A DNA stretch of 64,000 nucleotides, from positions 3,839 to 67,838 of IMG/VR virus record IMGVR_UViG_2767802057_000001. One strand, 5' to 3'. The stretch is from a virus (Duplodnaviria > Caudoviricetes). Numbering within the stretch: position 1 is the first letter of the stretch; every line of letters starts with the position of its first letter. The position numbers and the translations under genes were made by a program. The notes beneath the pieces were generated by a model that was not told where the DNA came from, searched no databases, and was given only the letters and a program-made list of their open reading frames with translations. Positions 22,417 through 43,305 of the stretch are shown here, in pieces.

Positions 22417-22419
22417 GGG

Positions 22420-23652: not shown

Positions 23653-23721
23653 GGCCGCCTCCTCTCCGAAGGTGGTCGTTCGGTGGCCTGCCCGGTCTCC
23701 CCGGGCGTGCGGCCTGTGCTG

Positions 23722-24500: not shown

Positions 24501-24501
24501 G

Positions 24502-24921
24502 TCAGCCCTCGCTCTTGCTCTTGCTGGTGTCGCCGTCGATGACGTCCCGCGGGGTCGTGGTGTCCTCGGGTCGGTCGTCGACGGAGGCGGGCACGGTGTC
24601 CACCGAGTAGGTGAGGATCAGGGAGAGGCCGTCGGGGTGCTCCTCCTGCCCGTCGAAGGAGACCTTGCCGCGCGGGTGCAGGCCGCGCTGGATCGCCTCG
24701 TTGACGACGCCGGCACGGTTGGCCTCGTGCTGGTAGTCCTCGCCGGTCCACCGCGCAGCCTGGACGACGAACTCCTTGACGTGGCGGGTGCCCTTGGCGC
24801 CGTCGGCAGACCGCTCGTCGACTTCGGCGGCGGGCGCGCCGGCCTTCGCGGGGAACTGCCGCTGGCGGACCTGCTGCTGGCCCTCACCGCTCTTGCTGCT
24901 GGTCTTTCTCGTTGCTGCCAC
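24502..24921 (-). CDS. Hypothetical head-associated protein
   Basis: Directly after major capsid gene and terminator; GGAGGTGAG RBS. Confidence 0.65.
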   Translation of the reverse strand: MAATRKTSSKSGEGQQQVRQRQFPAKAGAPAAEVDERSADGAKGTRHVKEFVVQAARWTGEDYQHEANRAGVVNEAIQRGLHPRGKVSFDGQEEHPDGLSLILTYSVDTVPASVDDRPEDTTTPRDVIDGDTSKSKSEG

Positions 24922-24941
24922 GGCTCACCTCCCTGCCGGTG

Positions 24942-24974
24942 GCCGTACCGCCCGGAGCCGTCGGGCGGTACGGC
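24942..24974 (-). terminator. Hairpin after major capsid gene
   Basis: GCCGTACCGCCCG / CGGGCGGTACGGC perfect 13-bp stem. Confidence 0.7.
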
Positions 24975-24985
24975 GGGTGGGGTGG

Positions 24986-25900: not shown

Positions 25901-26028
25901 GGTGGCCCTCCTGCGGGCGGCGTGATGGGGAAGCTGTCGGCTCGGGCCCCATCACGGGCGCCTACAAGCGGGCGGTGGCTGCTCCGATCACCGGAGTATT
26001 CACCTGATGCTGAATATACCTTGTGTGG

Positions 26029-26817
26029 TCAAGCCCTGCCCAGGATCCGCTGCGCGTGCAGCTCCGCCGTCGACTTGGGCTTCTCCTGGGCCGGGGGACG
26101 GGGTGCCCCCGTCGGCCTGGCCTTCGGCTTGCGCGCGGGGGCGGAGAACAGCTCGGGGTAGTCGCGGCGCAGTTCGTCGACCGCCGCTTCCAGCCCGGAC
26201 ACGGTGCCGTCGTCGTCGATGTCGAGCGACTCGGTGTCCACCAGCTTCATCAGCCGCTTGAGTCGGGACTCGCCCTTCTCCCGCGAGGACTGCGCCTCGG
26301 GGTCCTTCTCGTCCTGGAGGAATGCCAGGGCGCCGGCCTCGACGAGCGCGCCACGGACGGCGGTCCGCACGAGCGGGGTCCGGTACCGCTTCTCGCCCTC
26401 TTCGCGGGCTTCCCGCAAGGCTTTCTCGTGCTCGGTCTCGTCGCCGCGGGCCTTCTCCTCCAGCTCCTTGTTGCGGAGCCGGTGCCGCTTGGCGTCGTCG
26501 TTGGCCTTCTTCAGCGCGGCCTGCGTGCGCGCCCACTCGTCCTTCGACGGCGGCTTGTAGTCGTCTGGCTCGGTCTTCTTGGTGGGCGGCTTGGGCTTCG
26601 GCTTGTCCTCCGGCTCCGGCTCGTCGTCCTCGACGGGATCCGGCTCGTCTTCCGGGTCGTCGTCGACTTCGACTTCGATGTCCGGCTCGTCGTCGGTCTC
26701 GGCGCCGCCGGCTATGACGTAGATCGGGCGGCCGTCGGCGCGGCGGCCGAGGATCGTTCCGGGCGGCACGCTGATGCCCAGGGGCTGGTCGGTGGTCTGG
26801 TTGGTGTGGATGCCCAT
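26029..26817 (-). CDS. Capsid scaffolding protein
   Basis: Acidic N-terminal tract, coiled coil, LRRDYPELF; precedes capsid gene. Confidence 0.8.
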   Translation of the reverse strand: MGIHTNQTTDQPLGISVPPGTILGRRADGRPIYVIAGGAETDDEPDIEVEVDDDPEDEPDPVEDDEPEPEDKPKPKPPTKKTEPDDYKPPSKDEWARTQAALKKANDDAKRHRLRNKELEEKARGDETEHEKALREAREEGEKRYRTPLVRTAVRGALVEAGALAFLQDEKDPEAQSSREKGESRLKRLMKLVDTESLDIDDDGTVSGLEAAVDELRRDYPELFSAPARKPKARPTGAPRPPAQEKPKSTAELHAQRILGRA

Positions 26818-26871
26818 CGTGTTCTCCTCCATCGCGGGGGCTGGCGGCGACCCATCGGCGGGCGCCGTGGT

Positions 26872-27888
26872 CTATGCGGCGGCCAGGAACCGGCCGGTGC
26901 GGATTGCGGTGCGGGCACGGGCCTCTACCGCAGGCAAAAGATCGTCGATGGTGCGCAGCAGCTCACGGGCAGCCCGCAGGCGTGCGGCACGAGACTCCGA
27001 CGGACGGCCGATGCCGTAGCCGATGGAGCGGTGCGCCTCCCGCTGCAGCGCGAGCGGGAACGGCACGCCCTGCGTGGTCCAGGCGGGATCCCACGGCACC
27101 GTGCGGCAGCGGCAGTGCGGGTGCAGCGGCGGGCCGTCCACGCCCGGCCGCCGACCGACGCGCTGCCGGGGATCCCACGAGAGTCCGCCGGGGAACGGCT
27201 CGCCGGGCTTCGCGGTGCGGCCGGTGTAAGCGAGGCAGCGCACACACGCATCCGCCTCCGCCACCCACAGGCGCAGCGGCGCGGTCGCCCGGACGACAGC
27301 GTCAAGGCCCTCATGCACCGCGGTGTTGATGACCCAGGCGATGTGCGCGCGGACCGCGGGCAGGGCGGCGCGGGCGGCACCGAGCCCAGCCAGCACGTGC
27401 GACCAGCGGGTCACCCGGTCCGGGTGCAGCAGGTGCAGCGCCCGGTCGCGGCGCTCGACCACCAGGGCCCGGACCCGCCGCGCCTCATCACGAAGGACCT
27501 GGCCGACGGACGGCACACGAGGCTCCCGACGGCGGCGGCCGGACGCGGCACGCACGAACTCCGCCCCCTGCCGCACCCCCATCGCGACAGCCGGGCCGAG
27601 ACCGCCCTCCAGGATCCCGGGCGCGCGGCCAGCGAGGTCGTCCAGCAGGCGGCGGACCGCCGCCCTGGCCGCGGCAATGATCCGGCGCAGCACCTCACCA
27701 GGCGCCGCAGGCTGGTTGGGGCCACCGAACGCGCTGGTCCATGCGGTCAGGGTGCGGCGGAACAGATCCTCAAACACCCGGTCACTACCAGGCAGCGCCC
27801 GGCTGGCGAGCTGGTCCTCCAGGTCGATGACCTCGCCCGTGTGGTCGTCCTGGACGAGGCGGGCCAGGCGGTCGCTGTTGTACGCCAT
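26872..27888 (-). CDS. MuF/gp7-like minor head protein
   Basis: ADACVRC...PPLHPHCRC motif; follows portal. Confidence 0.8.
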   Translation of the reverse strand: MAYNSDRLARLVQDDHTGEVIDLEDQLASRALPGSDRVFEDLFRRTLTAWTSAFGGPNQPAAPGEVLRRIIAAARAAVRRLLDDLAGRAPGILEGGLGPAVAMGVRQGAEFVRAASGRRRREPRVPSVGQVLRDEARRVRALVVERRDRALHLLHPDRVTRWSHVLAGLGAARAALPAVRAHIAWVINTAVHEGLDAVVRATAPLRLWVAEADACVRCLAYTGRTAKPGEPFPGGLSWDPRQRVGRRPGVDGPPLHPHCRCRTVPWDPAWTTQGVPFPLALQREAHRSIGYGIGRPSESRAARLRAARELLRTIDDLLPAVEARARTAIRTGRFLAAA

Positions 27889-29414
27889 CAGCCCTCCTCC
27901 TGCGTGTCGGCGAGGACTTCGAGGTCGTCGATCGCTCCGGCCATCAGTGCGCTGGCCTGGTCGTTGGTGATGACGCCAAGCGCCGCCGCGGAGCCGAGCT
28001 TCTGCGCGGAGTCGGCGAGGGCAGCGAGGATGTCGACACGGCGCTGCAACTCGGCGTCGTCGACCCCGGCGAGCCAGGTATCGACCTGCTCGGCCCGATA
28101 GCCGGCCTCTACCAGGGCCTGCCGGCGGGGCACACCCGCGCGGATCTTTGCCTCGACGGTCTGCCAGCCCTCGGCATCGTCGATGGTCTCGGCCGGTTTC
28201 CAGTGCACGGTGACGACCGGGTCTTCGGCACCGAGGCGGCGCAGAGCGAAGGTGAACGCCTCACGCAGGGTGGCGCCGTAGGACAGCTGCCGGTTGCCTA
28301 CCTTCTTGGTGAACGGGGCGTCCTGCGCGCGCACGGACTGTCCGGACGGCTGTTCCCCGGACGGGTCGAACAGGTGCAGCGGTGTGGTGGTGATCTGTGC
28401 CATGGCCCGCACGTTGAACATGATCGGGTCGAGGAACACCTGCGGGTTCGCCGCATCGAACTGGCCGACGGCTTTGAAGCCGCGCAACAGCATCAGTTCA
28501 CCGGGCCCGGCCTTGAGAGAGCTGTCGTCGCCGGAGTCTGACGGCCCGAGGCCCTTCTCGGGCAGCGGCCAGTCGTCGTCGGCGAAGTCCCCCGGCTCCA
28601 GTTCCGAGGTGTCGGTGTTGGCGGCCTCGGTGAGCGCGTACCGCTGCGGGAACCCCTGGTAGTCGACCGTGCCCATGTGGGTGGCCTGCAACTTGGTGAT
28701 CGCGTTCTGCGGGCCGTAGGCGCCGTAGTGCTCGGGCACGCCGTAGGGCCGGTCGGTGCGGAAATGGTAGACGGGCTGCTCACCCCAGTCGTGCTCGATC
28801 ACCCACGACTCTGGGTCCTCCTCGTCAGCAGGCCAGTGCAGCCAGTCGGCGGGTTTGCTGCCGTCGGAGTTCTTGGCTGTCGTCCACCGTTCGGTGCGGT
28901 CGTCGTAGAGCAGCTCAGCGCGCTGGTAGGGGCCGTCGCACCACCGTTTGATCGTGAACCGTTTGCGGCGCGGGTTTTCCTCGTCGTAGATCACCCGGAC
29001 GGTCTGGGGGGAGTTGTAGAACATCTCGACCCGGATCACGTTGCCGCGTTCGTCCTCGACAGGGAGGACCATCAGGTAGGCGTCGCCGTACTCGCCGGCC
29101 CGGCGGAACAGGTCGGGCATCTCCAGGTCGAGCTGGTTGTCTTGCCAGATCTTCGAGATCAGGTTGGTGGTGGCGTCGTCCTGTCCGGTGATCCCTGCGA
29201 TCTCCAGGCGGTCAGTGACGGCGTCGACGGCGGTTTTGGCGAAGTTGAGGTCGAAGTCGATGTCGTGGGCCATGAGGGCGCGGCGCAGGCGGACGCTGGT
29301 GAAGACTTCGGGGACCTTGCCGTCGTAGTACATGGCGGCATGGTCATAGTCGGGGCGGGCGTCCTTCAGCTCTTCGATGCCGTACATGAGGTCGTCGAGC
29401 GACTCGTCATCCAA
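27888..29414 (-). CDS. Portal protein (SPP1 gp6-like)
   Basis: YYDGK, LNFAKTAVD, IWQDNQLD, YGDAYLMV; TTG start after AAGGAGG. Confidence 0.9.
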   Translation of the reverse strand: MDDESLDDLMYGIEELKDARPDYDHAAMYYDGKVPEVFTSVRLRRALMAHDIDFDLNFAKTAVDAVTDRLEIAGITGQDDATTNLISKIWQDNQLDLEMPDLFRRAGEYGDAYLMVLPVEDERGNVIRVEMFYNSPQTVRVIYDEENPRRKRFTIKRWCDGPYQRAELLYDDRTERWTTAKNSDGSKPADWLHWPADEEDPESWVIEHDWGEQPVYHFRTDRPYGVPEHYGAYGPQNAITKLQATHMGTVDYQGFPQRYALTEAANTDTSELEPGDFADDDWPLPEKGLGPSDSGDDSSLKAGPGELMLLRGFKAVGQFDAANPQVFLDPIMFNVRAMAQITTTPLHLFDPSGEQPSGQSVRAQDAPFTKKVGNRQLSYGATLREAFTFALRRLGAEDPVVTVHWKPAETIDDAEGWQTVEAKIRAGVPRRQALVEAGYRAEQVDTWLAGVDDAELQRRVDILAALADSAQKLGSAAALGVITNDQASALMAGAIDDLEVLADTQEEG

Positions 29415-29446
29415 TGCGACCTCCTTCGCCACGGCAAGCATACGCT

Positions 29447-29486
29447 GTCACCTTCGAATCAAAGGTAACTTGCTGTCGCAGCCTTA
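29447..29486 (-). promoter_or_regulatory. Late-motif copy upstream of portal
   Basis: GTCACCTTCGAATCAAAGGTAAC near-palindrome; minus strand TAAGGC-17bp-TTTGAT-TCGAAGG. Confidence 0.55.
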
Positions 29487-31006
29487 GAAACTTGCCTCGG
29501 CTTGCTCGGGATGAACCGGCGCACCGCGCTCCCCACCGCGTCCACAAGGTCATCGTGTGGGGCCTTCGGGAAGGCGCACATCTGCTCCTCCAACTCCCGC
29601 AACCGGCGCGCGTGCAGCACCCGGCCGCGCTGGTAGTGGCCAAGCACGCCCTCGGCCCGCACGACCTTCGGCTCCGACTGCGAGACGGTCTTCACCCGCA
29701 CTGGCATGTGGTGGAACACGGCCTGCCAGACGTCCTGCCCCTGGTTGACCTCCAGGAGGATCAGCCCGATCCGCGGCCACTCGTCCAGCAGCGCCAGCAC
29801 CCGCTCCCGCAGCTGCTCGCCGGGCGGGATCTTCACTGCGAGCGCCTCGTGCACGGTGCAGCGGCGGGCCTGCGCCGACCAGGAGACCACCGCCAGCCCC
29901 GTGAAGTCGCTGCCCTTCTTCGCGGTCACCGCCGGGTCGATCGACAGCATCATGTGCGTGATCGGGTCCGCACCCTCCGGGCCCGGGTAGCGGAAGTCGT
30001 CCGGCGTCCACAGCGCACCGTCCGCGCCCATGGGGTCGTTGGCGTAGTTCTTCGCGAACGAGCGGGTGTGTTCGATGCTCTTGAGGTAGGTGAGCGGCCA
30101 CTTCGCCGGCCACACGCTGCGCTCGTAGCCGCCCACGGTCTTGATGATCGGCGGCGTGTAGTGGGCGGCGAACCCTTCCTCGGCGATCCAGGGGGCGGTC
30201 TCGACGGCGCGGGCGTGCTTGACGAGCTGGTGGACGATGCTGCCCGGCATGGTCACCGTCCCGGAGATCACCACGCGGGCGTACACGTTCAGCGGGAGGA
30301 TCGCGTCGACGAGGGTGGTGCGCCGTTTCCGGGCCAGGTCAAGGGAGTAGGAAGACTCGTCTGGTTCGATGTCGTCACACAGGATGAGGTCGGGCCGGCG
30401 CTCGCCGACCTTCATGCCGAGGTTCGAGGAGTCGATGCCGCGCGCGGCAAACACGAACCCGTTGTCCGCGATGAACATGCTCTGGGTGTCGGCGACGTTC
30501 GACCCGGACGGCCGCTTCGCCGGGGAGCAGAGATCCTTGAAGTCGCGCCGCAACAGCTCGTTGCCGTCGATCTCCTTCTTGAACGACGAGAGATGCGTCT
30601 CTGCCTGGGTGGCCGACGCGGCGAACGCTGCGGCGAACCGGACGTGACCGTGCGCGGCAGCCCACATCGGCAGGATCAGAAACCACCACGTGGACTTGCC
30701 CATATTGCGTGGGGCGATGTATGCGTCCCGGTTCTCGCCCGGCGCGGTTGGCGGGCGTACCCAGCGCCGGGCGGCGCGGCACCAGTCCAGGTGCGCGTCG
30801 CCGAACGTGATCAGGCCCTCGGCGTCCCGGAGATGGTGCCGCAGGTAGACCAGGGCGAACAGCATCGGGTCCAGGCGGGTGAGGGTGCGTCGGCCTTCCG
30901 GGTCGGCGAGGAGCCGGGCGTCGAACTGGGCGAGGTAGGCGTTGAGGTCGAACGACTCGGCGTCCAGGCCCTCGAGGTAGCCGGGCGCGCGGACCGCGGT
31001 CCCCAC
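29459..31006 (-). CDS. terL: Terminase large subunit
   Basis: APRNMGKST Walker A, LILCDDIE Walker B, SIDPA...SDFTG and HDDLVDA nuclease motifs. Confidence 0.93.
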   Translation of the reverse strand: MGTAVRAPGYLEGLDAESFDLNAYLAQFDARLLADPEGRRTLTRLDPMLFALVYLRHHLRDAEGLITFGDAHLDWCRAARRWVRPPTAPGENRDAYIAPRNMGKSTWWFLILPMWAAAHGHVRFAAAFAASATQAETHLSSFKKEIDGNELLRRDFKDLCSPAKRPSGSNVADTQSMFIADNGFVFAARGIDSSNLGMKVGERRPDLILCDDIEPDESSYSLDLARKRRTTLVDAILPLNVYARVVISGTVTMPGSIVHQLVKHARAVETAPWIAEEGFAAHYTPPIIKTVGGYERSVWPAKWPLTYLKSIEHTRSFAKNYANDPMGADGALWTPDDFRYPGPEGADPITHMMLSIDPAVTAKKGSDFTGLAVVSWSAQARRCTVHEALAVKIPPGEQLRERVLALLDEWPRIGLILLEVNQGQDVWQAVFHHMPVRVKTVSQSEPKVVRAEGVLGHYQRGRVLHARRLRELEEQMCAFPKAPHDDLVDAVGSAVRRFIPSKPRQVSKAATASYL

Positions 31007-34169: not shown

Positions 34170-34382
34170 TCACCTGGCGGTGTACTGGCGTTCGGCGTCG
34201 GCTATGGCCTGCTCGCGGGTGGTGTGGAGCTGGGACTTGATGAGGGGCCGTCCGGTGGTGGTGTCGCGGATGACGGCCAGCCAGGTCTTGCCGGGGGCCT
34301 GGTATTCGGTCGGGTTGTTGGGGAGCTGGCCGTAGGTTTGGTGGACGTCCCAGGTGTGACCGTTGTCGAGGCTGGTGGGCAT
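34170..34382 (-). CDS. Hypothetical protein
   Basis: GAAAGGA RBS; last gene of transfer operon. Confidence 0.6.
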   Translation of the reverse strand: MPTSLDNGHTWDVHQTYGQLPNNPTEYQAPGKTWLAVIRDTTTGRPLIKSQLHTTREQAIADAERQYTAR

Positions 34383-34400
34383 GGCGTTCCTTTCGGTGGG

Positions 34401-34907
34401 TTAGATGAGTCGTGCGTGGGCGAGTTCGGCGGCGCGGCCGAGGTAGAGCAGCGGTAGCCGCGGGCCGCGCTGGCTGTCGTTCCAGCTGGGGATCGTCTCG
34501 GCGTCGGCGAAGTCCCGGCGGATCGCTTCGAGGAGCACAGCGCAGGCGTCGTCGGCCTGGTCACGGCTGGCAGCCACGGCTCGGATCGCTCCGATGAGGC
34601 AGACGGCCCCGGCTTCGTCCCGCAGCTGCCCGGTGCACCAGCCGCCCTCGAGCCGGGCCTGCGCCTGGTACAGGACTGCGGCGAGCGGAGTCGTGTACGG
34701 GCAGGGCGCGGCCGCCGGGATGATGAGCGGCGGGGCGACGACCTCAGGCAGTGGCTCGGCGGCCGGCAGGTGGGCGGTGTTCACGTCGATGGCGAGGTGG
34801 GCGAGGTAGATCCGCTCGTCCATGACCGCGCCCACCATGGCGAGCCGCGCGTCCAGGTCGAGTTCGACCGGGGTGGCGGTCGTCGTCTTGGTGGGCGCCG
34901 TGGTCAT
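34401..34907 (-). CDS. DUF6197-like protein
   Basis: GWCTGQL...VCLIGAI...IPSWND motif. Confidence 0.65.
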   Translation of the reverse strand: MTTAPTKTTTATPVELDLDARLAMVGAVMDERIYLAHLAIDVNTAHLPAAEPLPEVVAPPLIIPAAAPCPYTTPLAAVLYQAQARLEGGWCTGQLRDEAGAVCLIGAIRAVAASRDQADDACAVLLEAIRRDFADAETIPSWNDSQRGPRLPLLYLGRAAELAHARLI

Positions 34908-35677
34908 GCGGCCTGCTTCTGGGCTTTGCCGCTGCCGGTGCACTCACCGCAGACGACGATGAGCTGCTGCCCGCCGAACGCGCTGTAGATCTTGCCGTTG
35001 CCGGCGCACTGCCAGCACAGGCCCTTGGCTATGGCCTTGCCGACAGGCATGGCCTTGTTCTGCTTGATCCACTGCTCGTCGGTCATGCCGGAGTCGGTGA
35101 CGGTCTTGGATACGGCGGGCGCCTGCTGCGGGGCCGGCTGCGCGACTGCTTCGTTGGCCTGCGCGTACCAGGCGCCGCCAACGGTCTTGCCGCCGTGCTT
35201 CTGCCGCTCGTGGGTGCGGAGCGCCTTGGTGGCCTCGCGTGCGTCGCGGTAGCGGGGCTTCTCCTTCTTGCCGCAGGGGCAGGCCCAGCCGATCAGCCCG
35301 GTGTTCTTGTCGGGCCCGAACCGGCTGGCCTTGTAGACGGCCCAGCGGCTGGCCGTCTGCTTGGTGGGCTTGGCGGGGCAGGGCTTACTGCCGGTGAACT
35401 CGCCGTTCTTGCCCTTGGTGAAGATCTGTCCGTTGCCGTGGCAGGTGGGGCAGCCTTCGTGGGTGGCGCGGAGGATGGCGGCGTCCTTGCGGGAGCGGAC
35501 GGTGTCGCTGTGGGTGTCGAGGTGGGCGGCGACGTGCAGCATGAGTTTTGCGGCGAGCCGGGCGTGCGGCGGGCCGCCCTTGGGGATCTTGACGCGCTTG
35601 GCGGGGTGCTTGCGGGTGCTGGGCTTCCGGCGGGCTTGGGTGGTGGTGCGGCGGGCGGGCTGGCGCTTCGCGGGCAT
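34904..35677 (-). CDS. Basic protein with DnaJ-type CxxCxGxG motifs
   Basis: CPTCHGNG, CWQCAGNG, CGECTGSG; GAGGAG RBS before ATG 35677. Confidence 0.75.
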   Translation of the reverse strand: MPAKRQPARRTTTQARRKPSTRKHPAKRVKIPKGGPPHARLAAKLMLHVAAHLDTHSDTVRSRKDAAILRATHEGCPTCHGNGQIFTKGKNGEFTGSKPCPAKPTKQTASRWAVYKASRFGPDKNTGLIGWACPCGKKEKPRYRDAREATKALRTHERQKHGGKTVGGAWYAQANEAVAQPAPQQAPAVSKTVTDSGMTDEQWIKQNKAMPVGKAIAKGLCWQCAGNGKIYSAFGGQQLIVVCGECTGSGKAQKQAA

Positions 35678-35722
35678 GATCGAGGCTCCTCGGCCGTGCG
35701 TTCGGTTTGTGATGGTTTGCGT

Positions 35723-35878
35723 GCTGCTCGGCTGGTGCTCGCTGGTGCTCCGCTGCAGGTCAGAGCCGCTCAAGGTGGCGCTCGGCGACTGCTCGGGGTT
35801 TCGGCGAGCAGTTGTGCGAGCAGTGGGTTGAGCAGCTCTGACCTGCGGTCGAGCAGTGTCGAGCACCTCGCGAGCAGT
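35723..35878. repeat. clt-like array of 8-bp repeats (candidate TraB recognition sequences)
   Basis: CGAGCAGT at 35805, 35817, 35850, 35871, reverse copy at 35788; variants at 35829, 35860 and (reverse) 35723, 35734, 35744, 35765, 35777; begins 7 bp past traB stop. Confidence 0.8.
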
Positions 35879-35885
35879 GGACTTT

Positions 35886-37889
35886 CTAGGTCAAAGCGGT
35901 CAGCGCTTCGATCTTGTAGCCGCGCGGGTTCTCGAAGCCGTCAATCGCGCCGATCGGCACCGGCGCGCCGACCCCGACGTCCCGGAGCAGCTTCCGCAGC
36001 GTGGCGACAGTGAGGTCGCCGTACAGCTCCGGCTTCAGCGTGATGAGCGCTTCAGCAAGGGCCTCGGTGCGGATCCGGTCCGCGCCCGCATCCGCCATCA
36101 CCTCGATGGCGTCGAACACGACCTGCCGGTCACCGGAGATCAGCTTCTGCTCCGCTCCCCCATCGGCCAGGTGCAGCAGCCCGGCGGCGGCAAGGGTGTC
36201 GCGGTCGAACCACGGTCGGCCAGCATCTATGCGATCGGTGACCGCCTGCTTGATCGCCTCGTTGCTGTGCTCGTTCCAGCCGTACAGCAACGGCCGGTCA
36301 AGGCCAGGGCCCTTGACATAGGACTGGCCGGCATCGTTCTTGATCTGCCTGTTCTGGGCGGGGACGAGCCGGTCGGGGCGGAAGCCCTTGGCGGCGGCGC
36401 CCTGACCGAAGACGATGCGGATGTCGTCCCAGCGGGAAGCGAGCATGACCTGCAGGGTGAAGGTGTCGGCGATCGCGTCACCCATGGCGTCGGACGTGGC
36501 GTCCTGGCCGGCCGCGATCGGGTAGATACCGGACTGCTTACCGAGGCGCAGCAGCTCGATGAACAGCTCCTTCGCCTTCGGACTGAGGTAGATGAACTCG
36601 TCGACGAACGCGAAGATCGCCGGGCGCTCCTTGGTGGCCACCCAGGTGTCGCCCATGCCGAGCCGGTTCCGGACGACGTTGCGGCCCTTGGCCATCTTCA
36701 CCAGGTTCTCCAGCCACTCCTCGCAGGCCTTGTTGCCGCGGATCGGCGGGACGGCCATGACGCCTTCGAACTCGCGGAGCCCGTCCTTGACCGGGTCGAG
36801 GTCGAGGGCGATCGCGTTGTGGCAGGCGGTGATGACCTCGGCCAGGTCACGCAGGACACCGGTGGTCTTGGCAGCACCGGAGACGCCGATGACGAGGATG
36901 CGCAGCCCTTCGAGGACCAGGTCGAGGCCGGAGCCGTCCATGCAGCGGCCGAAGTTGTGGCTGTCGGCGATGTCGAGGCTGTTCGGGGCGTGGACGGCGG
37001 GCTTGGGCATGTCCTCGAACGGGTTGCCGGTGACGAGGCGGAGCACGATGTGCGCGGACTGCTGGGGGTCGGGGTCGATGAGGGTGCCGCCGTGCTTGAG
37101 GTTGAAGTGGACGTCGAGCTGGTCGGCGACGGCGTTGACCTTGCCGGGGGTTGCGCCCTTGAGGATGACGTCGATCTCCCAGAACTTGCCGCGGAAGCCG
37201 AGCGCCCGGATCTGCCGGGCTTCGATCCCTTCCCAGGCGAGCGCGCGGGACACGCAGTCCTCGACCATTCCGGGCGATGTGCACACGGCGAGCGGGAACG
37301 GCTCGTCGCTGTTGGGGTCGTCCTGGTCGGCGATGATCGCCTGCGGTGCGAGCTCGGGCCGGTGGGCACGGTAGCGGCCGTAGGCGGTGATGCCGGCGGC
37401 CAGGGCAAGTCCGGTGCCGGTGGGCGGGATCGCCGCGGCCGGGCCGATGGCCTCCATGTGGGCTTCGGCGACGAGCGCCCACCAGCCAGTCAGGTTGAGG
37501 CCGGCGGTGATGCCTCCGACCCAGCCGAGGAGCTTCCACCGCTTCTTGCGGACTTCGTCGACTTTGTTCCAGTCGCCTTTCTTCTGCATGCCGCCGATGA
37601 CCTCTTGAAGGTCGTGGGCGCGCACGTACCGCCAGCCGAGGAAGCAGACGGCCTTGAGGCCGATACCGAAGTAGCGGGCGGAGAGGCCGGCCGCCCGTCC
37701 GGTCGTGGCGGCCACCACCATCGCCGCGGAGCTGGTCTTCGCGAGGACGGGGGTGTGCGGCTCGTAGGGGACGACGATGCCGGGCGGGATGTCTTCGTCG
37801 GCGAGGTCGTCGGGCACGTGCAGCTCGCCGGGAATGACCTTGGTCAGGTCCCAGTCGTGGGGCAGCTCGGGGTGCGCTTCGGTGGTCAT
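35886..37889 (-). CDS. traB: TraB/TraSA-like FtsK/SpoIIIE conjugative DNA translocase
   Basis: N-terminal TM segments, GVSGAAKT Walker A, IFAFVDEF Walker B, LLRLGKQSGI...AGQ, GQSYV, C-terminal wHTH-sized domain. Confidence 0.85.
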   Translation of the reverse strand: MTTEAHPELPHDWDLTKVIPGELHVPDDLADEDIPPGIVVPYEPHTPVLAKTSSAAMVVAATTGRAAGLSARYFGIGLKAVCFLGWRYVRAHDLQEVIGGMQKKGDWNKVDEVRKKRWKLLGWVGGITAGLNLTGWWALVAEAHMEAIGPAAAIPPTGTGLALAAGITAYGRYRAHRPELAPQAIIADQDDPNSDEPFPLAVCTSPGMVEDCVSRALAWEGIEARQIRALGFRGKFWEIDVILKGATPGKVNAVADQLDVHFNLKHGGTLIDPDPQQSAHIVLRLVTGNPFEDMPKPAVHAPNSLDIADSHNFGRCMDGSGLDLVLEGLRILVIGVSGAAKTTGVLRDLAEVITACHNAIALDLDPVKDGLREFEGVMAVPPIRGNKACEEWLENLVKMAKGRNVVRNRLGMGDTWVATKERPAIFAFVDEFIYLSPKAKELFIELLRLGKQSGIYPIAAGQDATSDAMGDAIADTFTLQVMLASRWDDIRIVFGQGAAAKGFRPDRLVPAQNRQIKNDAGQSYVKGPGLDRPLLYGWNEHSNEAIKQAVTDRIDAGRPWFDRDTLAAAGLLHLADGGAEQKLISGDRQVVFDAIEVMADAGADRIRTEALAEALITLKPELYGDLTVATLRKLLRDVGVGAPVPIGAIDGFENPRGYKIEALTALT

Positions 37890-39238
37890 CACTGGTCCTT
37901 CTTCGCAGCGGCGTTGCGGGCGGTAATGGAGGCCTGACGACGGGCCACGGACACGTACTTCACGTCGCCCTTGGTGCGCACTCCGCGACGCGCGGGAGGG
38001 TTGTAGACGCGGGGCTGCTTGGTACCCGGCACTTGCGAAGCACGCTGCGCGTTCGCGGTCTTGCTGAGGGTGTTGACGGGGGTGCCGGTGAGGGCAGATT
38101 GGACGCGCGCTTCCGCCTTCAGGCGGGAGGTGATGGACTCGATGGACTCGCCCGGGTCGGTGCCCTTGATGTTGCGGTAGGCGCGCTTCCAGACGGCCTC
38201 GTCGTTCGGTGTCGAACCGACCGCGGCGGCGATCTTCACGGCCTCGTGCCACACGTCCGGGAACTCTCGCTGACGATCCTCGGTCAGCTGCCGCAGCTTG
38301 ACCTCTGCGTCCTTCCGTGCGGCCTGCTCCTCGGCGGCGCGACGCTTCTCCTCGGCGGCCTTCCGGGCGGCCTCGGCGCGCTCCGCCTTCCGCTGTGCGC
38401 GACGTTCGCGACGGGACAGCTTGCCATCCAGCTTCCGGATCCGGCCGTGCTCGTGGAGATCCCAGACGCCGGGGCCGGCGATGCTGGCGAATGCCGTACC
38501 GATCGCGGTCGCCGGGTCGAAGGCGTGCATGCCGTGCCAGAGGTTGATGCTCGCGGCGATGAAAGCGAGCAGCCAGGCGATCAGCCGGTAGTGCCAGTGC
38601 GGCCGGTGGTCGTCGACCGCGGCACGGGCACCCTGCAGAACCACCCACGCGCCGCCCTCGAGCATGAACGGCGCGACCAGCAGCCACTTCGCGTGCGGGT
38701 TGTAGAAGGCGGCCATCTGCACCGGCAGGGCGACAACGGCGCAGACGACCGCGAAGCCGAGCGCACACCTCGTCCATACGTTCGCGGTCTTCTGCCGCTT
38801 CTCCACCTGCTCGGCCTCGGCCTGCTGCTGCTCGGCGGCCTGCCGGTCGGATTCCTCGCGGGCGCGGTCGGCGTCCGCCTTGCGCTTCCTGCTCTCGGCG
38901 ATCCGCGCCTCGGACGCGGCCTCGTCCTCGCGAGCCTTCCGCTCCAACTTGTCGTTGTTGAGGCGCAGCCGGCGGGCCTCTTCCTCCGCCTTGGCGCGGA
39001 TGGCGTCGGCCTCGGCCTCGGCGCGCAGGCGCTGCTCCTCGGCCTCGGCCCAGGCTCGGGCGCGGATCGCCTCGGCCTCGGCCTGCGCGATCAGGTCGCT
39101 CTCGGGCTGCGCGTCGTCGGGCGAGGCGGGGATGCTGGGCTCGGTGGCGGGGGTGGCCTCTATGGGCTGCCAGTCCCCCAGCACCTGCAGGGCCTGCGGC
39201 CGGGCGCGGCCGTTCACCTTCGGCGGGCTGGCAGTCAT
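37889..39238 (-). CDS. Spd-like membrane protein (DUF2637-like)
   Basis: Long Ala/Glu coiled coil, four TM helices, second coiled coil; TGATG-coupled to traB. Confidence 0.7.
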   Translation of the reverse strand: MTASPPKVNGRARPQALQVLGDWQPIEATPATEPSIPASPDDAQPESDLIAQAEAEAIRARAWAEAEEQRLRAEAEADAIRAKAEEEARRLRLNNDKLERKAREDEAASEARIAESRKRKADADRAREESDRQAAEQQQAEAEQVEKRQKTANVWTRCALGFAVVCAVVALPVQMAAFYNPHAKWLLVAPFMLEGGAWVVLQGARAAVDDHRPHWHYRLIAWLLAFIAASINLWHGMHAFDPATAIGTAFASIAGPGVWDLHEHGRIRKLDGKLSRRERRAQRKAERAEAARKAAEEKRRAAEEQAARKDAEVKLRQLTEDRQREFPDVWHEAVKIAAAVGSTPNDEAVWKRAYRNIKGTDPGESIESITSRLKAEARVQSALTGTPVNTLSKTANAQRASQVPGTKQPRVYNPPARRGVRTKGDVKYVSVARRQASITARNAAAKKDQ

Positions 39239-39261
39239 GGCTGGTCTGTCCTCTCTGGGTT

Positions 39262-39459
39262 TCAGCCGCGGCGAGCGGCGTGGTGAGCGTGGAGGGTGCT
39301 GATCAGGTGGTCGAGGACGTACATCGCGGCGAGGGCCGCGATGATCGCGCTCAGCAACGGCACCGGACGCGGCGCGTCCAGGGAGGCGGCCACTCGGCCG
39401 ACGGTGATCCCGAACACGAGGGACGGCACGAACGTGGCGACCCAGGCCAGGAAGCACAT
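39262..39459 (-). CDS. Small two-TM membrane protein
   Basis: Two hydrophobic segments in 65 aa. Confidence 0.6.
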   Translation of the reverse strand: MCFLAWVATFVPSLVFGITVGRVAASLDAPRPVPLLSAIIAALAAMYVLDHLISTLHAHHAARRG

Positions 39460-39460
39460 G

Positions 39461-39664
39461 TCACTCCCCCCGCCTGCGCCGGCTGCGCGTGGACCGGTAG
39501 CCGAACGGGCCGGGCAGGTCCATCGAGGTGGTGGTGCGGCCAGTGCTGGACCAGGTCCGCTTCGGCCCGTGCTTGGGGCCGACGGTGATCGACCAGGACT
39601 TGGCGTTCAGGTTCAGGCGGACCCCGGGCAGGATCCGGAACGACCTACGGAACGTGATCGGCAC
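39461..39664 (-). CDS. DUF4236-like small basic protein
   Basis: FRRSFRILPGVRLNLNAKSWSITVG signature. Confidence 0.75.
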   Translation of the reverse strand: MPITFRRSFRILPGVRLNLNAKSWSITVGPKHGPKRTWSSTGRTTTSMDLPGPFGYRSTRSRRRRGE

Positions 39665-39675
39665 TGCGTGTCCTC

Positions 39676-39969
39676 TCAGACGGTCGCGCGGCGGGCGCGG
39701 TGGAATTCGCGGATGAACTCGTCGGTCAGGCCGGAGCCGATGGCCGCCCCGACCGGGCCGATCCCGGTGACGGACGCAGCCCACAGCTCCAGCCAGGCGG
39801 CTCGGGTGGCCAGGTAGTTGATGACGGGACGGGCGGAGCGCACGACGAAGACGAGCGCGCCGAGCCCTGCCATCACCAGCAGGGCCAGAGTCTTCAGCGC
39901 CCACCGGCCCGCCCAGCGGGCCGCAAGCCGCAGCCGACTGGGCTTCGCGGTGATCAGATACGGGCGCAT
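39676..39969 (-). CDS. Small membrane protein
   Basis: GAGG RBS; central TM helix. Confidence 0.65.
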   Translation of the reverse strand: MRPYLITAKPSRLRLAARWAGRWALKTLALLVMAGLGALVFVVRSARPVINYLATRAAWLELWAASVTGIGPVGAAIGSGLTDEFIREFHRARRATV

Positions 39970-40057
39970 GACGACCTCACTCGGGGTCGGAACGGACAGT
40001 GGGGGGTGCCGCCGCGCGAGACGGGGGGTTGGTGGTCGCGCGGCGGCGGTCTCGGGG

Positions 40058-40294
40058 TCAGGCGGCGGCCGGGTAGTCGAAGCCGTCGAGCTCGGAGGCG
40101 AGAGCGGGGTCGCGCTTTACCGCGTCGCGGATCGCCTTCATGCGGGCCAGGTCGCCGGACCGGCGGGCGGCGGCGTAGTCGGCGAACAGGTCGCTGATGC
40201 TGAGCACCTGCAGGTCGGACACGAGGGTCGCGGCGCGGGCCTTCCGGCCGATCTCGGTGGCGCCCAGGTCGGCGGAGAACAGGTACGGGGACAT
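40058..40294 (-). CDS. Hypothetical protein
   Basis: AGAGGA RBS; compact helical ORF. Confidence 0.6.
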   Translation of the reverse strand: MSPYLFSADLGATEIGRKARAATLVSDLQVLSISDLFADYAAARRSGDLARMKAIRDAVKRDPALASELDGFDYPAAA

Positions 40295-40346
40295 GACGGA
40301 TCACGGATCCTCTCTGGATCAAGAAGGGGGTTTGGTAAGCGGCGGG

Positions 40347-40658
40347 TCAGGCAGTAGGGCGGGGCAGAGCGCGGCAGGTCTCGGCGTGGGCTTGAGCCCA
40401 CTCGCGGGCGTCCTTGTCGGCCGCCTCCGGGACGCGCTCCTCACGCTGAGCGGTCAGGCCCCAGACCATCCGGTAGTGGCTGTGCTCGGAGGAGTCCGGG
40501 CAGCCGGTGCAGTTGGCGAGCGTTGCGTAGGGCTCGGGCGGGGTGAGCGCGTTGCACATGTAGGTGATGTCGACGTGAGCGCCGCCGACGGTGAGGTAGC
40601 GGGCGATGACGCCCTCCGGCCAGGCGGTGGGCGCGATGGTGCGGGCGGTAGAAGACAT
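40347..40658 (-). CDS. Hypothetical protein (Cys/His motif)
   Basis: ARYLTVGGAHVDI...CTGC...WAQAHAETCRALP. Confidence 0.7.
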   Translation of the reverse strand: MSSTARTIAPTAWPEGVIARYLTVGGAHVDITYMCNALTPPEPYATLANCTGCPDSSEHSHYRMVWGLTAQREERVPEAADKDAREWAQAHAETCRALPRPTA

Positions 40659-40762
40659 GGCTGATCTCCTCGGTTGGTCATGCCGGGATGGGGTTGGTGG
40701 TGTGCCGCGGGCGCGGGACGGGGGGGGAGTTGTCGGACCGCGCCCGCGGCGGTCGGTGGGGT

Positions 40763-40894
40763 TCAGCGCTTCAGGAGGGCGGCGGCCTGACGGGCGGCCT
40801 CGGCAGCAGCGGCGGCCTGCTTCGCCGCCTCCATGTGCTGCCGGGTGAACTCGGCGAGATCCTTCGCGGCCGCGCCCTGGTCGGCGGGGCTCAC
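40763..40894 (-). CDS. Small helical protein
   Basis: GTGA overlap, GGGAGG RBS. Confidence 0.5.
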   Translation of the reverse strand: MSPADQGAAAKDLAEFTRQHMEAAKQAAAAAEAARQAAALLKR

Positions 40895-41160
40895 GACGCC
40901 TCCCCGGCTACGGCTCGCAGGTGCCGGATCGGCTGCGGGCTGCCCCACTGCCGGTCTTCGATGGCCTCCAGCAGCTGGGTCAGCTGCTCGACGCCGGCCT
41001 CCGACACGGTCAGCTGCCACTGGAAGGTGCCGCCGGGGACACCGTCCACGGTGTGGATCGGCAGGGCCAGGAAGGCGTCGGCGGGGTTGGGGTCGAGGGC
41101 GCGGAGGAGACGGGCGAGACGATGACCGAGGGCCACGGCACGCAGGTCACGCTCGTTCAT
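40891..41160 (-). CDS. Hypothetical protein
   Basis: Coupled overlaps. Confidence 0.6.
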   Translation of the reverse strand: MNERDLRAVALGHRLARLLRALDPNPADAFLALPIHTVDGVPGGTFQWQLTVSEAGVEQLTQLLEAIEDRQWGSPQPIRHLRAVAGEAS

Positions 41161-41357
41161 CGCTGCTCACCGCCGTCGATGACGCGGAGCAGGATGTCGA
41201 CGGCTGCCAGGAGCTTGCCGATCCGGTCGACCTGCCACGCCTTGGCGGCGGTCTCGCCCTCGGGGCAGGCTTCCGGCTCGGTCTCGCGGAGGAGACGGCG
41301 GGCGTAATCGACGTAGGCCCGGTCGGCAGCGTCCAACTCGATACGGGAGGCCATCAC
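41157..41357 (-). CDS. Hypothetical protein
   Basis: Coupled overlaps. Confidence 0.6.
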   Translation of the reverse strand: MMASRIELDAADRAYVDYARRLLRETEPEACPEGETAAKAWQVDRIGKLLAAVDILLRVIDGGEQR

Positions 41358-41629
41358 GCCACCTCGACGATCACGAGGAAGTCGTCGGACGGCAGGTCGA
41401 GGACGACCTCGGCGGCCACGCCCTCGCGGCGCTGCTGAGCGGCGAACTCCTCCGCCGGCCAGGAGCCGCGCGGGTTGCCAGCCGGGATCCGGTGCAGGAT
41501 CTCGCGGGTCGGCTTCGGCGCGGGCGGCGCGGTGCGGACGTAACTGCCGGCCTCGTGGGCGAGGCGGTCGGCCGGGGTCATGCCCTGGCCATCGGCGCTC
41601 ACGGGCGCCTGTACGATCTCGGTAGCCAC
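41354..41629 (-). CDS. Hypothetical protein, first gene of transfer operon
   Basis: AAGGAGA RBS before GTG. Confidence 0.65.
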   Translation of the reverse strand: MATEIVQAPVSADGQGMTPADRLAHEAGSYVRTAPPAPKPTREILHRIPAGNPRGSWPAEEFAAQQRREGVAAEVVLDLPSDDFLVIVEVA

Positions 41630-41748
41630 AGGGTCTCCTTGTCAGAACCTGGTGGTCAGGGCCGGCACGCGAGGTGAGAGTCGCGTTGTCCGGCCCGCTT
41701 TGCTGTTGTCGTCGCTCGCGGACTGGGTCCGGTGAGAGTGAGCGCCGG

Positions 41749-41804
41749 TCTCAAGTTTTCGCTTGAGATGACTCGACCATAGGGCCCTCCGAAGTCGCCG
41801 TCAA
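41749..41804 (-). promoter_or_regulatory. Sigma70/HrdB-type promoter with downstream operator
   Basis: TTGACG(41804-41799)-17bp-TATGGT(41781-41776); inverted repeat TCTCAAG-N6-CTTGAGA at 41749-41768; extra CTTGAGA at 41842. Confidence 0.75.
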
Positions 41805-41877
41805 GCGCATCCGCACCCCAACTCGTCTGCACAAGCCGAACCTTGAGAGTCTGTCCGGAGCCCCCTACCCTCAGGGC

Positions 41878-42117
41878 ATGACTCCCTCGAACTCCGACTT
41901 CACCCAGCTCGCCGAACGCATCAGAGGAATCGACGACCTCGGCGAGCGCTACAGGGAGATCAGGCAAGCCGAGGCGGTGTTCAAGACCCTGGTCCGCACC
42001 CTCCTCCAGGAGGTCGCCCAGGGCCTGAAGGACGAAGGAAAGACCTGGCCAGAGGTCGCGCAGGTCATGGGTGGCGTCACCTACCAGCGCGCCCACCAAA
42101 TCGCTCGCGGTGAATGA
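41878..42117 (+). CDS. Small HTH regulator (candidate Kor-type repressor)
   Basis: GKTWPEVAQVMGGVTYQRAHQIA HTH; divergent from transfer operon. Confidence 0.75.
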   Translation: MTPSNSDFTQLAERIRGIDDLGERYREIRQAEAVFKTLVRTLLQEVAQGLKDEGKTWPEVAQVMGGVTYQRAHQIARGE

Positions 42118-42265
42118 GCAGACCGTCATGGGGCCAGTCTTCGCGCGGGCACGCGCTCAGACCATGAAGCCCCAATGCAGCACCATGCAGTGATCTGCAG
42201 CGGGACATGCAGCCACATGCAGACCCGCCGCAACAAGGCCCACGGAAGCGGCCGAGGAGCCGATA

Positions 42266-42901
42266 GTGGACGGACAGCAGTGGACCGGGCGGAAAGCAGC
42301 CTGGCTCCAGGACGCATTCGAAATGACCCAGGAGGCGTTCGCGGGAAAGCTCGGGGTTTCGGTTCGCAGCGTCGCATCGTGGCGCGCGAACCCAGACATG
42401 ATTCCCCAGCAGGAAACGCAGCGCATCCTGGACACGACTTTAGCGATGGCAGGTGATGCGGTGCGTCGGCGGTTCATCCATTTGTCGCGGACGGCTATAG
42501 CGCAGCCGGAAGTTCAGGCGCTGCGGGTGGCGATCGCCGTGGTTCGCCGCGGAGGTGACGTGCTGCTCGTGTGCAGGCAGGACGGCGAAGACATCGCGTG
42601 GCAGTTCCCGGCCGGCATCGTGAAGCCGGGCGGCTCGGCATCGAAAGTCGCGGTGCGGGAAACCCTGGCTGAGACCGGCGTGCACTGCACGGTCCGCGAG
42701 CATTTGGGTGAACGACTCCATCCCCACACCCACGCAATGTGCGACTACTTCGTTTGCGATTACGTGCATGGCGAGGCGATCAATGGGGACAGCTCGGAGA
42801 ACGTCGCCGTGGCCTGGGCTCCGATAGCGGAGCTCGCCCGCTTCATCCCCACCGACCGCATCTACCCGCCGATCCTCGACGCCCTGGAGGCGACCGTATG
42901 A
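42266..42901 (+). CDS. XRE-HTH fused to degenerate Nudix domain
   Basis: MTQEAFAGKLGVSVRSVASW HTH; Nudix box GIVKPGGSASKVAVRETLAETGV lacks two conserved Glu. Confidence 0.85.
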   Translation: MDGQQWTGRKAAWLQDAFEMTQEAFAGKLGVSVRSVASWRANPDMIPQQETQRILDTTLAMAGDAVRRRFIHLSRTAIAQPEVQALRVAIAVVRRGGDVLLVCRQDGEDIAWQFPAGIVKPGGSASKVAVRETLAETGVHCTVREHLGERLHPHTHAMCDYFVCDYVHGEAINGDSSENVAVAWAPIAELARFIPTDRIYPPILDALEATV

Positions 42902-43305
42902 CCACCGAGACAAAGAAGCCCGACGTCAGCGCCGCCATCATCACGGACGGAGGACGTGTCCTCATGGTGCGGCGCCGCGTGAAGGAGGGCGAGCTCAGCT
43001 GGCAGTTCCCGGCCGGCGGCGTCGAGGACGGGGAGACGGCGGAGCAAGCCGCAGTGCGGGAAACGCTCGAGGAGACCGCCTTGACCGTGAAGGCGGTGAA
43101 GTACATCGGCGACCGGGTTCATCCGAAGACCGGCAAGTTCATGGCCTATACCGCGTGCGAGGTTGTCGACGGCGAGGCCCGGGTCGCGGACGCCGAGGAG
43201 CTGGACCTGGTGGCGTGGGTCGCGCACGACGAGATCCCCGACCTGGTGCCCTACGGCCTTTTCGAGCCGGTGCAGGCTTACCTGGACGACGTGTTGCCGC
43301 ACTGA
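42898..43305 (+). CDS. Nudix hydrolase (MutT/Pif-like)
   Basis: GGVEDGETAEQAAVRETLEETAL Nudix box; ATGA overlap. Confidence 0.9.
   Translation: MTTETKKPDVSAAIITDGGRVLMVRRRVKEGELSWQFPAGGVEDGETAEQAAVRETLEETALTVKAVKYIGDRVHPKTGKFMAYTACEVVDGEARVADAEELDLVAWVAHDEIPDLVPYGLFEPVQAYLDDVLPH

What the first reader, a model, noticed from the sequence alone, without database searches (positions are those of the whole stretch)
34170..43305. A complete siphophage carrying an AICE-type conjugation system: candidate dual-mode (virion plus hyphal conjugation) element
Seen: between the early genes and the terminase lie a promoter/operator with divergent HTH, an operon of small membrane genes, a Spd-like 4-TM protein coupled to a TraB/FtsK translocase, a clt-like repeat array, and a Nudix pair. 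No RepSA-type initiator, second integrase or flanking direct repeats are visible, so it does not look like an independent AICE insertion. Known: in Streptomyces TraB plus clt suffices to move circular dsDNA between hyphae, and Spd proteins spread it. Plasmid-phages such as pZL12 are reported to carry transfer genes, so there is partial precedent. Inference: a temperate phage with Xis/repressor immunity whose excised circle can also travel cell-to-cell by TraB, bypassing receptors and extracellular defences.
Basis: partly seen in the sequence, partly recalled or inferred. Interest (0 to 1): 0.9.

Follow-up and report, generated by a model that had tools for sequence, protein, structure and literature searches.

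The report
Streptomyces prophage with built-in TraB cassette
An integrated tailed phage of Streptomyces carries, as a conserved part of its own genome, the DNA pump, matching docking repeats and membrane helper that Streptomyces plasmids use to push double-stranded DNA between hyphae. It may therefore also spread without virus particles; this is untested, and plasmid-phages such as pZL12 are a laboratory precedent.

Summary
Between the early genes and the terminase lies a minus-strand operon. It holds an SpdB2 homologue (37889-39238) overlapping the start of an FtsK/TraB-type translocase (35886-37889). A 6+6 mirror array of 8-bp repeats starts 7 bp after the traB stop. A divergent HTH gene and a Nudix pair sit upstream.

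The cassette is not a separate AICE:
- There is no RepSA and no direct repeat above chance flanking it, and its composition matches the rest of the phage.
- The record has one integrase, just left of the window.
- The whole cassette sits at the same place in 14 related loci, including a 62-kb circularly assembled phage genome with different virion genes.

New here: the repeat word changes in concert at all 12 positions between lineages. Only the last ~80 residues of TraB track that change. The motor domain and the neighbouring genes do not. This supports a cognate TraB-clt pair.

Actual capsid-free transfer is inferred, not shown. pZL12 and pFP4 are published plasmid-phages that both conjugate and form virions, and SpdB2 homologues in actinophages were noted in 2015. 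This scan has already flagged at least 14 similar cassettes in other genomes. This case is an integrative variant with a divergent TraB family.

The parts
35886..37889 (-). TraB/FtsK-like dsDNA translocase, 667 aa. N-terminal long helices 55-175, motor about 200-560, C-terminal winged-helix-like domain 586-667.
   Evidence: phrog_12531 E 7e-67. No Pfam hit at 0.01. K341, D430 and E431 are invariant in 57 relatives. Profile hits FtsK 2ius at E 7e-10. AF2 pLDDT 86.5, Foldseek FtsK motor E 2.6e-15, TMt 0.69. 31% identical over 72% of its length to plasmid Tra proteins.
37889..39238 (-). SpdB2 homologue, 449 aa, with a coiled-coil N-terminus and a multi-TM core. Its stop overlaps the traB start (TGATG).
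   Evidence: BLASTP against pSVH1 SpdB2: E 1e-17, 27% over 375 aa. Hits DUF2637/SpdB2 genes on plasmids. No hit in 50,697 deposited phages.
35723..35878 (.). clt-like array: 6 direct plus 6 inverted 8-bp units (word TGCTCG) with a conserved GCAGGTCAGAGC core in each arm. It starts 7 bp after the traB stop.
   Evidence: Conserved in place and architecture in all 14 related loci, with concerted change of the word to TGCTCA, TGCTA or CGTCTA. Only the TraB C-terminus tracks the word. pSVH1's GACCCGGA cluster has the same layout, starting 5 bp after its traB stop.
39676..39969 (-). 97-aa membrane protein, conserved in every related cassette. Candidate Spd partner.
   Evidence: One strong hydrophobic segment. 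51-88% identical in all 14 loci.
39461..39664 (-). DUF4236 small protein.
   Evidence: Pfam PF14020 E 2.8e-16.
39262..39459 (-). 65-aa protein with two hydrophobic segments.
40058..41629 (-). Six small, mostly soluble ORFs at the head of the operon, of unknown function.
   Evidence: GC3-based gene calls. No TM segments. No family hits. Partly conserved in relatives.
41630..41810 (-). Promoter TTGACG-17-TATGGT, inverted repeat TCTCAAG-N6-CTTGAGA at the start site, and a conserved structured leader of about 120 nt.
   Evidence: No Rfam family.
41878..42117 (+). Divergent 79-aa HTH protein, the candidate repressor of the operon.
   Evidence: phrog_686 E 7e-5. Homologues at the same place in L004, L006, L020 and L021.
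42266..42901 (+). Nudix-domain protein. The long ORF has an N-terminal HTH-like stretch and the Nudix box looks partly degenerate.
   Evidence: Pfam NUDIX E 1e-16. Sequence read.
42898..43305 (+). Stand-alone Nudix hydrolase with an intact Nudix box.
   Evidence: Pfam NUDIX E 5e-23. phrog_1198 E 2e-22.
34904..35677 (-). 257-aa protein with four CxxC pairs, directly after the array. Conserved in all cassettes and absent from plasmids.
34401..34907 (-). DUF6197 protein.
   Evidence: Pfam E 5e-17.
10699..31006 (-). Context: virion module (TerL 29459-31006, portal, scaffold, capsid, tape measure 16377-21014, tail genes).
62864..64000 (.). Context: excisionase-type HTH_17, Cro-like HTH, and a divergent repressor-like gene cut by the record end.

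Best explanation
This is a temperate, integrating Streptomyces siphophage. Its own genome includes a plasmid-type double-stranded-DNA transfer and spread cassette.

Proposed mechanism:
1. After the divergent HTH repressor is relieved, the operon is transcribed from its own sigma-70-like promoter.
2. TraB assembles as a membrane-anchored FtsK-like ring.
3. Its C-terminal winged-helix-like domains bind the 12-unit array just downstream of traB (the clt).
4. The motor pumps the excised or replicating circular phage DNA across septal cross-walls, or into a touching hypha. The SpdB2 homologue and the small membrane partners help.
5. The Nudix pair may play the Pif-like role of stopping futile transfer between cells that already carry the element.

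Shown here: the identity of the parts, their integration in the phage lineage, their intactness, and a specific evolutionary link between the TraB C-terminus and the repeats.

Inferred: DNA binding, transfer itself, when it happens, and whether it acts between compartments or between strains.
For: - FtsK-type motor with intact Walker residues.
- SpdB2 homology to the characterised pSVH1 protein.
- Same gene order as pSVH1 and a 46-kb conjugative plasmid.
- The repeat cluster is highly non-random and placed like the pSVH1 clt.
- The array is conserved in 14 loci, and all 12 units switch word together.
- On trees, repeat type needs 1 change for TraB 585-667 (2 of 5000 shuffles do as well). It needs 5 changes for TraB 1-560 (3582 of 5000 shuffles).
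- The Zn-finger, SpdB2 and 97-aa protein trees do not group by repeat type.
- The only 5 positions in TraB that perfectly separate the repeat types are 606, 645, 646, 649 and 653, all in the C-terminal domain.
- dN/dS is 0.31-0.47 and no relative has a broken copy.
- The cassette sits between early genes and terminase in relatives with different virion genes, including a DTR (circular) 62-kb genome.
- Published function of TraB, clt and SpdB2 (PMC4447253) and of tra-bearing plasmid-phages (PMC3583192, PMC4170104).
Against: - No experiment bears on this lineage.
- TraB is only weakly similar to pSVH1 TraB (E 3e-4) and fails Pfam FtsK_SpoIIIE.
- Related FtsK-like genes sit alone, without SpdB2, in 89 lytic BE-cluster phages, where conjugation is unlikely.
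- The C-terminal domain is physically next to the array, so some co-inheritance is expected from linkage alone.
- The winged-helix fold is only weakly supported when the domain is folded alone.
- A 64-kb-plus phage that is lysing its host may have little time to transfer.
Confidence: 0.6

Rival explanations
1. The translocase cassette serves a job inside the infected or lysogenic mycelium that is not transfer of the phage genome to other cells. Examples are interfering with host septation or chromosome segregation during sporulation, or making sure phage DNA is partitioned into spore compartments. This is what is loosely assumed for FtsK-like genes of lytic Streptomyces phages.
For: - FtsK-like homologues (36% identity) occur in 89 lytic BE-cluster phages without SpdB2.
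- Authors link phage FtsK-like genes to host development (PMC13587820).
- An integrated prophage does not obviously need a plasmid pump.
Against: - This does not explain a cis-acting 12-unit array that co-varies with the TraB DNA-binding end.
- It does not explain the SpdB2 partner.
- It does not explain the plasmid-like operon order.
Confidence: 0.2
2. The cassette is an immunity or exclusion device. SpdB2, TraB and the Nudix pair would be kept by the prophage to block incoming plasmids, AICEs or phages, not to export its own DNA.
For: - The Nudix protein Pif gives conjugal immunity in pSAM2 (PMC2440964).
- The cassette lies next to genes on the lysogeny strand.
- A PASTA/Sie-like gene lies nearby.
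Against: - An intact motor and its own cognate array on the phage genome are not needed for exclusion.
- The operon runs with the early-to-late lytic gene train.
Confidence: 0.07
3. An independent AICE or plasmid fragment inserted into the prophage, either still autonomous or decaying.
For: The tra/spd/Nudix gene set is typical of AICEs (PMC2440964).
Against: - No RepSA (weak control).
- Only one integrase in the record, 35 kb away.
- No flanking repeat above chance, and GC and GC3 equal the rest of the phage.
- Same cassette at the same place in 14 loci, including phages with other virion genes.
- No stops or frameshifts, and dN/dS below 0.5.
Confidence: 0.03

Closest known systems
Streptomyces plasmid-phages pZL12/phiZL12 (Zhong et al. 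2010, J Bacteriol 192:3747) and pFP4 (Chen et al. 2012, Plasmid 68:170)
   Same: A tailed-phage genome that also carries a working Streptomyces tra locus. These are described as able to conjugate and also to form infective particles (PMC4170104). pZL12 transfer needs a major tra gene plus two adjacent genes (PMC3583192).
   Different: - Those elements are maintained as roughly 90-kb episomes with ParA/ParB (PMC4487206).
- This element and its relatives have a tyrosine integrase and no ParB.
- Neither original paper nor either sequence could be read here, so homology of the tra genes was not tested.
tra/spd region of S. venezuelae plasmid pSVH1 (TraR, SpdB3, Spd79, SpdB2, Orf108, TraB, clt)
   Same: - Divergent regulator, small genes, SpdB2, TraB, then an 8-bp repeat cluster starting a few bases after the traB stop, with direct and inverted copies.
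- SpdB2 homology at E 1e-17.
   Different: - The regulator is a 79-aa HTH protein, not GntR.
- TraB is only distantly related (E 3e-4).
- The repeat word is different.
- The host replicon is a phage, not a 12.6-kb rolling-circle plasmid.
Tra proteins of pFP1-type and 40-48-kb Streptomyces plasmids (NC_006912.1, NZ_CP108056.1)
   Same: These are the nearest plasmid relatives of the translocase: 31% identity over 72% of its length, including the C-terminus. They have a DUF2637/SpdB2-like gene just upstream.
   Different: They are plasmids with GntR regulators and no virion genes. Their translocase is about 860 aa.
FtsK-like DNA translocase of lytic BE-cluster Streptomyces phages (e.g. Coruscant, NootNoot)
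   Same: Same PHROG family (phrog_12531). 36% identity over the motor domain.
   Different: The gene stands alone among tRNA genes, with no SpdB2. A repeat array was not looked for there.

Membership tests
Streptomyces TraB/Tra conjugative dsDNA translocase | FtsK-type motor domain with Walker A and B | tested here: met
   K341, D430 and E431 invariant. FtsK profile hit E 7e-10. Foldseek FtsK motor E 2.6e-15.
Streptomyces TraB/Tra conjugative dsDNA translocase | Match to Pfam FtsK_SpoIIIE (PF01580), as used in AICE surveys | tested here: not met
   No Pfam hit at E 0.01. Only 3 of 57 family members match. Surveys based on PF01580 (PMC3218068) would miss this gene.
Streptomyces TraB/Tra conjugative dsDNA translocase | N-terminal membrane anchor | tested here: inconclusive
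   The model has long helices at 55-175, but a simple hydropathy scan at threshold 1.5 found no segment there.
Streptomyces TraB/Tra conjugative dsDNA translocase | C-terminal winged-helix DNA-recognition domain | tested here: inconclusive
   The full-length model gives a1-b1-a2-a3-wing at pLDDT about 90. Folded alone, the wing is lost. Foldseek finds nothing significant. VIA-align Z is 4-5.2, mostly to winged-helix domains.
Streptomyces TraB/Tra conjugative dsDNA translocase | Cognate cluster of 8-bp repeats (clt) next to the gene | tested here: met
   Covariation with the C-terminal domain only. Same layout as pSVH1.
Streptomyces TraB/Tra conjugative dsDNA translocase | Sequence homology to a characterised TraB | tested here: inconclusive
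   pSVH1 TraB: E 3e-4 over 198 aa. Clear homology only to uncharacterised plasmid Tra proteins.
Streptomyces TraB/Tra conjugative dsDNA translocase | clt-dependent DNA transfer between hyphae | not testable with these tools
   Needs mating assays.
SpdB2 spread protein | Homology to pSVH1 SpdB2 across the coiled-coil, TM core and C-terminal part | tested here: met
   E 1e-17, 27% over 375 aa.
SpdB2 spread protein | Encoded in an operon with traB | tested here: met
   Its stop overlaps the traB start by one base.
AICE (independent integrative conjugative element) | Own Int + Rep (RepSA/RepAM/Prim-pol) + Tra within att repeats, about 9-25 kb | tested here: not met
   No RepSA (control silent). 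Single integrase 35 kb away. No flanking repeats. Cassette fixed inside phage genomes. RepAM and Prim-pol were not searched.
pZL12/pFP4-type plasmid-phage | Virion genes plus tra locus on one replicon | tested here: met
pZL12/pFP4-type plasmid-phage | Episomal maintenance with ParA/ParB | tested here: not met
   No ParB in this record or above the family cut-off in 5 relatives. Integrases present. ParA was not searched.

The most novel reading that the evidence does not exclude
A widespread lineage of integrating Streptomyces siphophages uses a TraB-clt-SpdB2 machine as a 'movement' system. After excision or during early replication, the phage genome is pumped through cross-walls and into neighbouring hyphae. 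Infection or lysogeny would then spread through a mycelium, or into receptor-less strains, without virions. The specificity of each phage's pump for its own array would be set by a few wing residues of the C-terminal domain.
Probability: 0.45. Interest if true: 0.75.

Novelty: new variant of a known kind. Interest (0 to 1): 0.55.

Why it matters
If the cassette works, these prophages have two routes of spread. Phage host range in Streptomyces would then not be set by receptors alone, and lysogeny could move through a colony or between strains in soil without free particles.

The TraB family here fails the Pfam model used in AICE surveys, so such elements are probably under-counted.

The concerted switch of the repeat word, together with five residues in the TraB C-terminal domain, gives a ready-made, testable specificity code for a dsDNA pump.

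The kind of element is not new, however. pZL12 and pFP4 were shown to do both, and this scan has met similar cassettes at least 14 times.

Tried and rejected
Chromosomal contexts of the more than 120 close homologues could therefore not be surveyed. Only 4 genome loci came from the genome-contig scan.
- Three key papers are not held: Zhong 2010, Vogelmann 2011 and Smith 2013. Their content is cited only through papers that quote them. The pSVH1 word GACCCGGA was recalled from memory and then checked on the plasmid sequence.
- The pZL12 and pFP4 sequences could not be located. A pSVH1-TraB query found no convincing phage homologue.
- Pfam and NCBIfam gave nothing for TraB or SpdB2.
- The TerL family phrog_38 is absent from 9 of 10 related viral records. 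That reflects mosaic virion genes, not absence of terminases.
- The 85-kb plasmid NZ_CP107912.1 was checked as a possible plasmid-phage. It is an ordinary plasmid.
- att sites: no tRNA was found, and the longest left/right shared word is only 16 nt. The record is cut, so the ends remain unknown.
- The RepSA search control rang in no genome, so that negative result is weak.
- The C-terminal domain folded alone lost its wing and gave no significant Foldseek hit.
- The tra leader has no Rfam family.
- A genus sample found close homologues in only 2 of 200 further Streptomyces species genomes.
Full report
**Where the window lies.** The window is bases 3839-67838 of a 67,838-bp IMG/VR provirus record that CheckV rates 78% complete. 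That record was cut from a 138-kb contig (P0001). GC is about 69% and coding density is high, mostly on the minus strand.

**The phage.** Read right to left, the minus-strand gene train contains:
- An immunity region: a repressor-like gene cut by the record end, a Cro-like HTH_31 and an excisionase-type HTH_17.
- Early genes: a PDDEXK exonuclease, C5 and N6/N4 methylases, and a phage replication initiator matching phrog_2149 at E 9e-46.
- The cassette under study.
- A virion module: TerL, portal, scaffold, major capsid and a 1545-aa tape measure.
- Lysis genes.

One tyrosine integrase lies at record bases 2822-3823, just left of the window. This is a temperate siphophage. Its ends and att sites could not be fixed.

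**The cassette.** The 667-aa product of 35886-37889 (-) has no Pfam hit but matches phrog_12531 'FtsK/SpoIIIE-like' at E 7e-67.
- A search of 1.84 billion representative proteins finds only 194 related clusters, so this is a small family.
- In a 57-sequence alignment the Walker A lysine (K341) and Walker B D430/E431 are invariant.
- A profile of that alignment hits FtsK structures at E 7e-10.
- The AlphaFold model (pLDDT 86.5) has long N-terminal helices, a motor whose best Foldseek matches are FtsK motor domains (E 2.6e-15, TMt 0.69), and a C-terminal a1-b1-a2-a3-wing domain.
- Its start codon overlaps the stop of a 449-aa gene (TGATG). That product aligns with the characterised SpdB2 of pSVH1 at E 1e-17 over 375 residues.

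Upstream lie a 65-aa two-TM protein, a DUF4236 protein, a 97-aa membrane protein and six small soluble ORFs.

The operon has a TTGACG-17-TATGGT promoter, an inverted repeat at the start site, and a divergent 79-aa HTH gene. Two Nudix genes follow on the plus strand. In pSAM2 the Nudix protein Pif gives conjugal immunity, and 13 of 20 AICEs carry a Nudix gene (PMC2440964).

**The repeat array.** Seven bases after the traB stop begins a run of 8-bp units.
- Five exact CGAGCAGT copies fall within 91 bp, where about 3.4 are expected in the whole window.
- With degenerate copies the layout is six units in one direction and six mirrored, with a GCAGGTCAGAGC core in each arm.
- As a control I scanned pSVH1. 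Its GACCCGGA word clusters at 8147-8330, starting 5 bp after the traB stop, with six direct and three inverted copies. This is the same layout.

**Integral or inserted?** The evidence points to an integral module.
- There is no RepSA (weak control), no ParB and no second integrase.
- No flanking direct repeat exceeds chance, and GC and GC3 equal the rest of the phage.
- Ten IMG/VR contigs and four Streptomyces genomes carry the translocase at 63-82% identity. The same neighbours surround it: the 97-aa protein, SpdB2, the array and the Zn-finger gene in all or nearly all, and the HTH gene and Nudix pair in only some.
- One contig is a 62,382-bp assembly with a 127-bp terminal repeat, rated 100% complete. 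It has the cassette at the same place, between early genes and the terminase, but has different TerL, portal and capsid genes.
- Four of five checked relatives have integrases, and none has a ParB match above the family cut-off.
- TraB shows dN/dS of 0.31-0.47 and no broken copy.

The cassette therefore belongs to a mosaic lineage of integrating phages and is not a separate AICE.

**Does TraB read the array?**
- Across lineages the repeat word switches at all 12 positions together. It is TGCTCG in nine loci including this one, TGCTCA in four, TGCTA in one and CGTCTA in one. The architecture stays fixed.
- On a tree of TraB residues 585-667, repeat type needs one change, and only 2 of 5000 label shuffles do as well.
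- On a tree of residues 1-560 it needs five changes, matched by 3582 of 5000 shuffles.
- The gene just downstream (Zn-finger), SpdB2 and the 97-aa protein also fail to track repeat type.
- The sequences on both sides of the 'C-terminal domain plus array' unit therefore recombine freely, while the unit stays matched.
- Only five of 667 positions perfectly separate the TGCTCG group from the TGCTCA and TGCTA groups taken together (L012 left out): 606, 645, 646, 649 and 653. All are in the C-terminal domain and four are in the predicted wing.
- Linkage contributes to this pattern, because the domain abuts the array. Even so, the pattern is what a cognate recognition pair predicts.
- The winged-helix assignment itself is only weakly supported.

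**Relatives elsewhere.**
- The nearest plasmid proteins are Tra proteins of pFP1-type and 40-48-kb plasmids, at 31% identity over 72% of the length. In the one inspected, a 46-kb plasmid, a DUF2637/SpdB2-like gene lies just upstream and GntR regulators are divergent.
- Eighty-nine lytic BE-cluster phages carry a 36%-identical FtsK-like gene. In Coruscant it stands alone among tRNA genes.
- No deposited phage has a homologue of this SpdB2.
- In a sample of 200 further Streptomyces species genomes, two had a close homologue.

**What is already known.**
- TraB, clt and the Spd proteins are well studied (PMC4447253).
[quoted passage not shown] - pZL12-like elements carry ParA/ParB (PMC4487206).
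- The original papers were not held.
- This scan has noted at least 14 similar cassettes in other genomes. I read those notes after reaching my own reading, and they agree with it.

**Verdict.** The element is a temperate integrating siphophage with a native TraB-clt-SpdB2 cassette. Capsid-free movement of its DNA is the best explanation (0.6) but is untested. The main rival is a development-related or segregation role for the pump (0.2). The kind of element is known, and this is an integrative variant with a divergent TraB family. Its main added value is the clear covariation between pump and array.

Noticed in passing
window 41630-41750 (-): A leader of about 120 nt for the tra operon is conserved in five loci. 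RNAalifold predicts two stem-loops plus an RBS hairpin, with 7 pairs keeping pairing through double changes. No Rfam family matches. It may be an attenuator or riboregulator.
   Followed up: partly
window 34904-35677 (-): A 257-aa protein with four CxxC pairs sits directly after the array in every related cassette. It has weak hits to Q-like antiterminator PHROGs and DnaJ-type zinc fingers, and no plasmid homologue. It may be the late-gene regulator rather than a transfer protein.
   Followed up: partly
L013-L016 (IMG/VR contig of 62,382 bp): A metagenomic phage genome with a 127-bp terminal repeat, rated 100% complete. It shares the cassette (TraB 82% identical) but has unrelated TerL, portal and capsid genes. 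This is a clear case of module mosaicism.
   Followed up: partly
window 32278-32922 (-): A PASTA-domain protein (Pfam E 9e-12) with a weak superinfection-exclusion PHROG hit lies between the cassette and the terminase.
   Followed up: no
window 48057-49025 and 53916-55409 (-): Two DNA methyltransferases (N6/N4 and C5) lie in the early region, probably for anti-restriction.
   Followed up: no
L023 (Streptomyces phage Coruscant, 73077-74921): In lytic BE-cluster phages the related FtsK-like gene sits alone in a tRNA-rich region near the terminase. Its role there is unknown.
   Followed up: no
window 31008-31640 (-): The 210-aa gene just upstream of TerL has no terminase-small-subunit hit, only a weak 'RNase E' PHROG match.
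   Followed up: no
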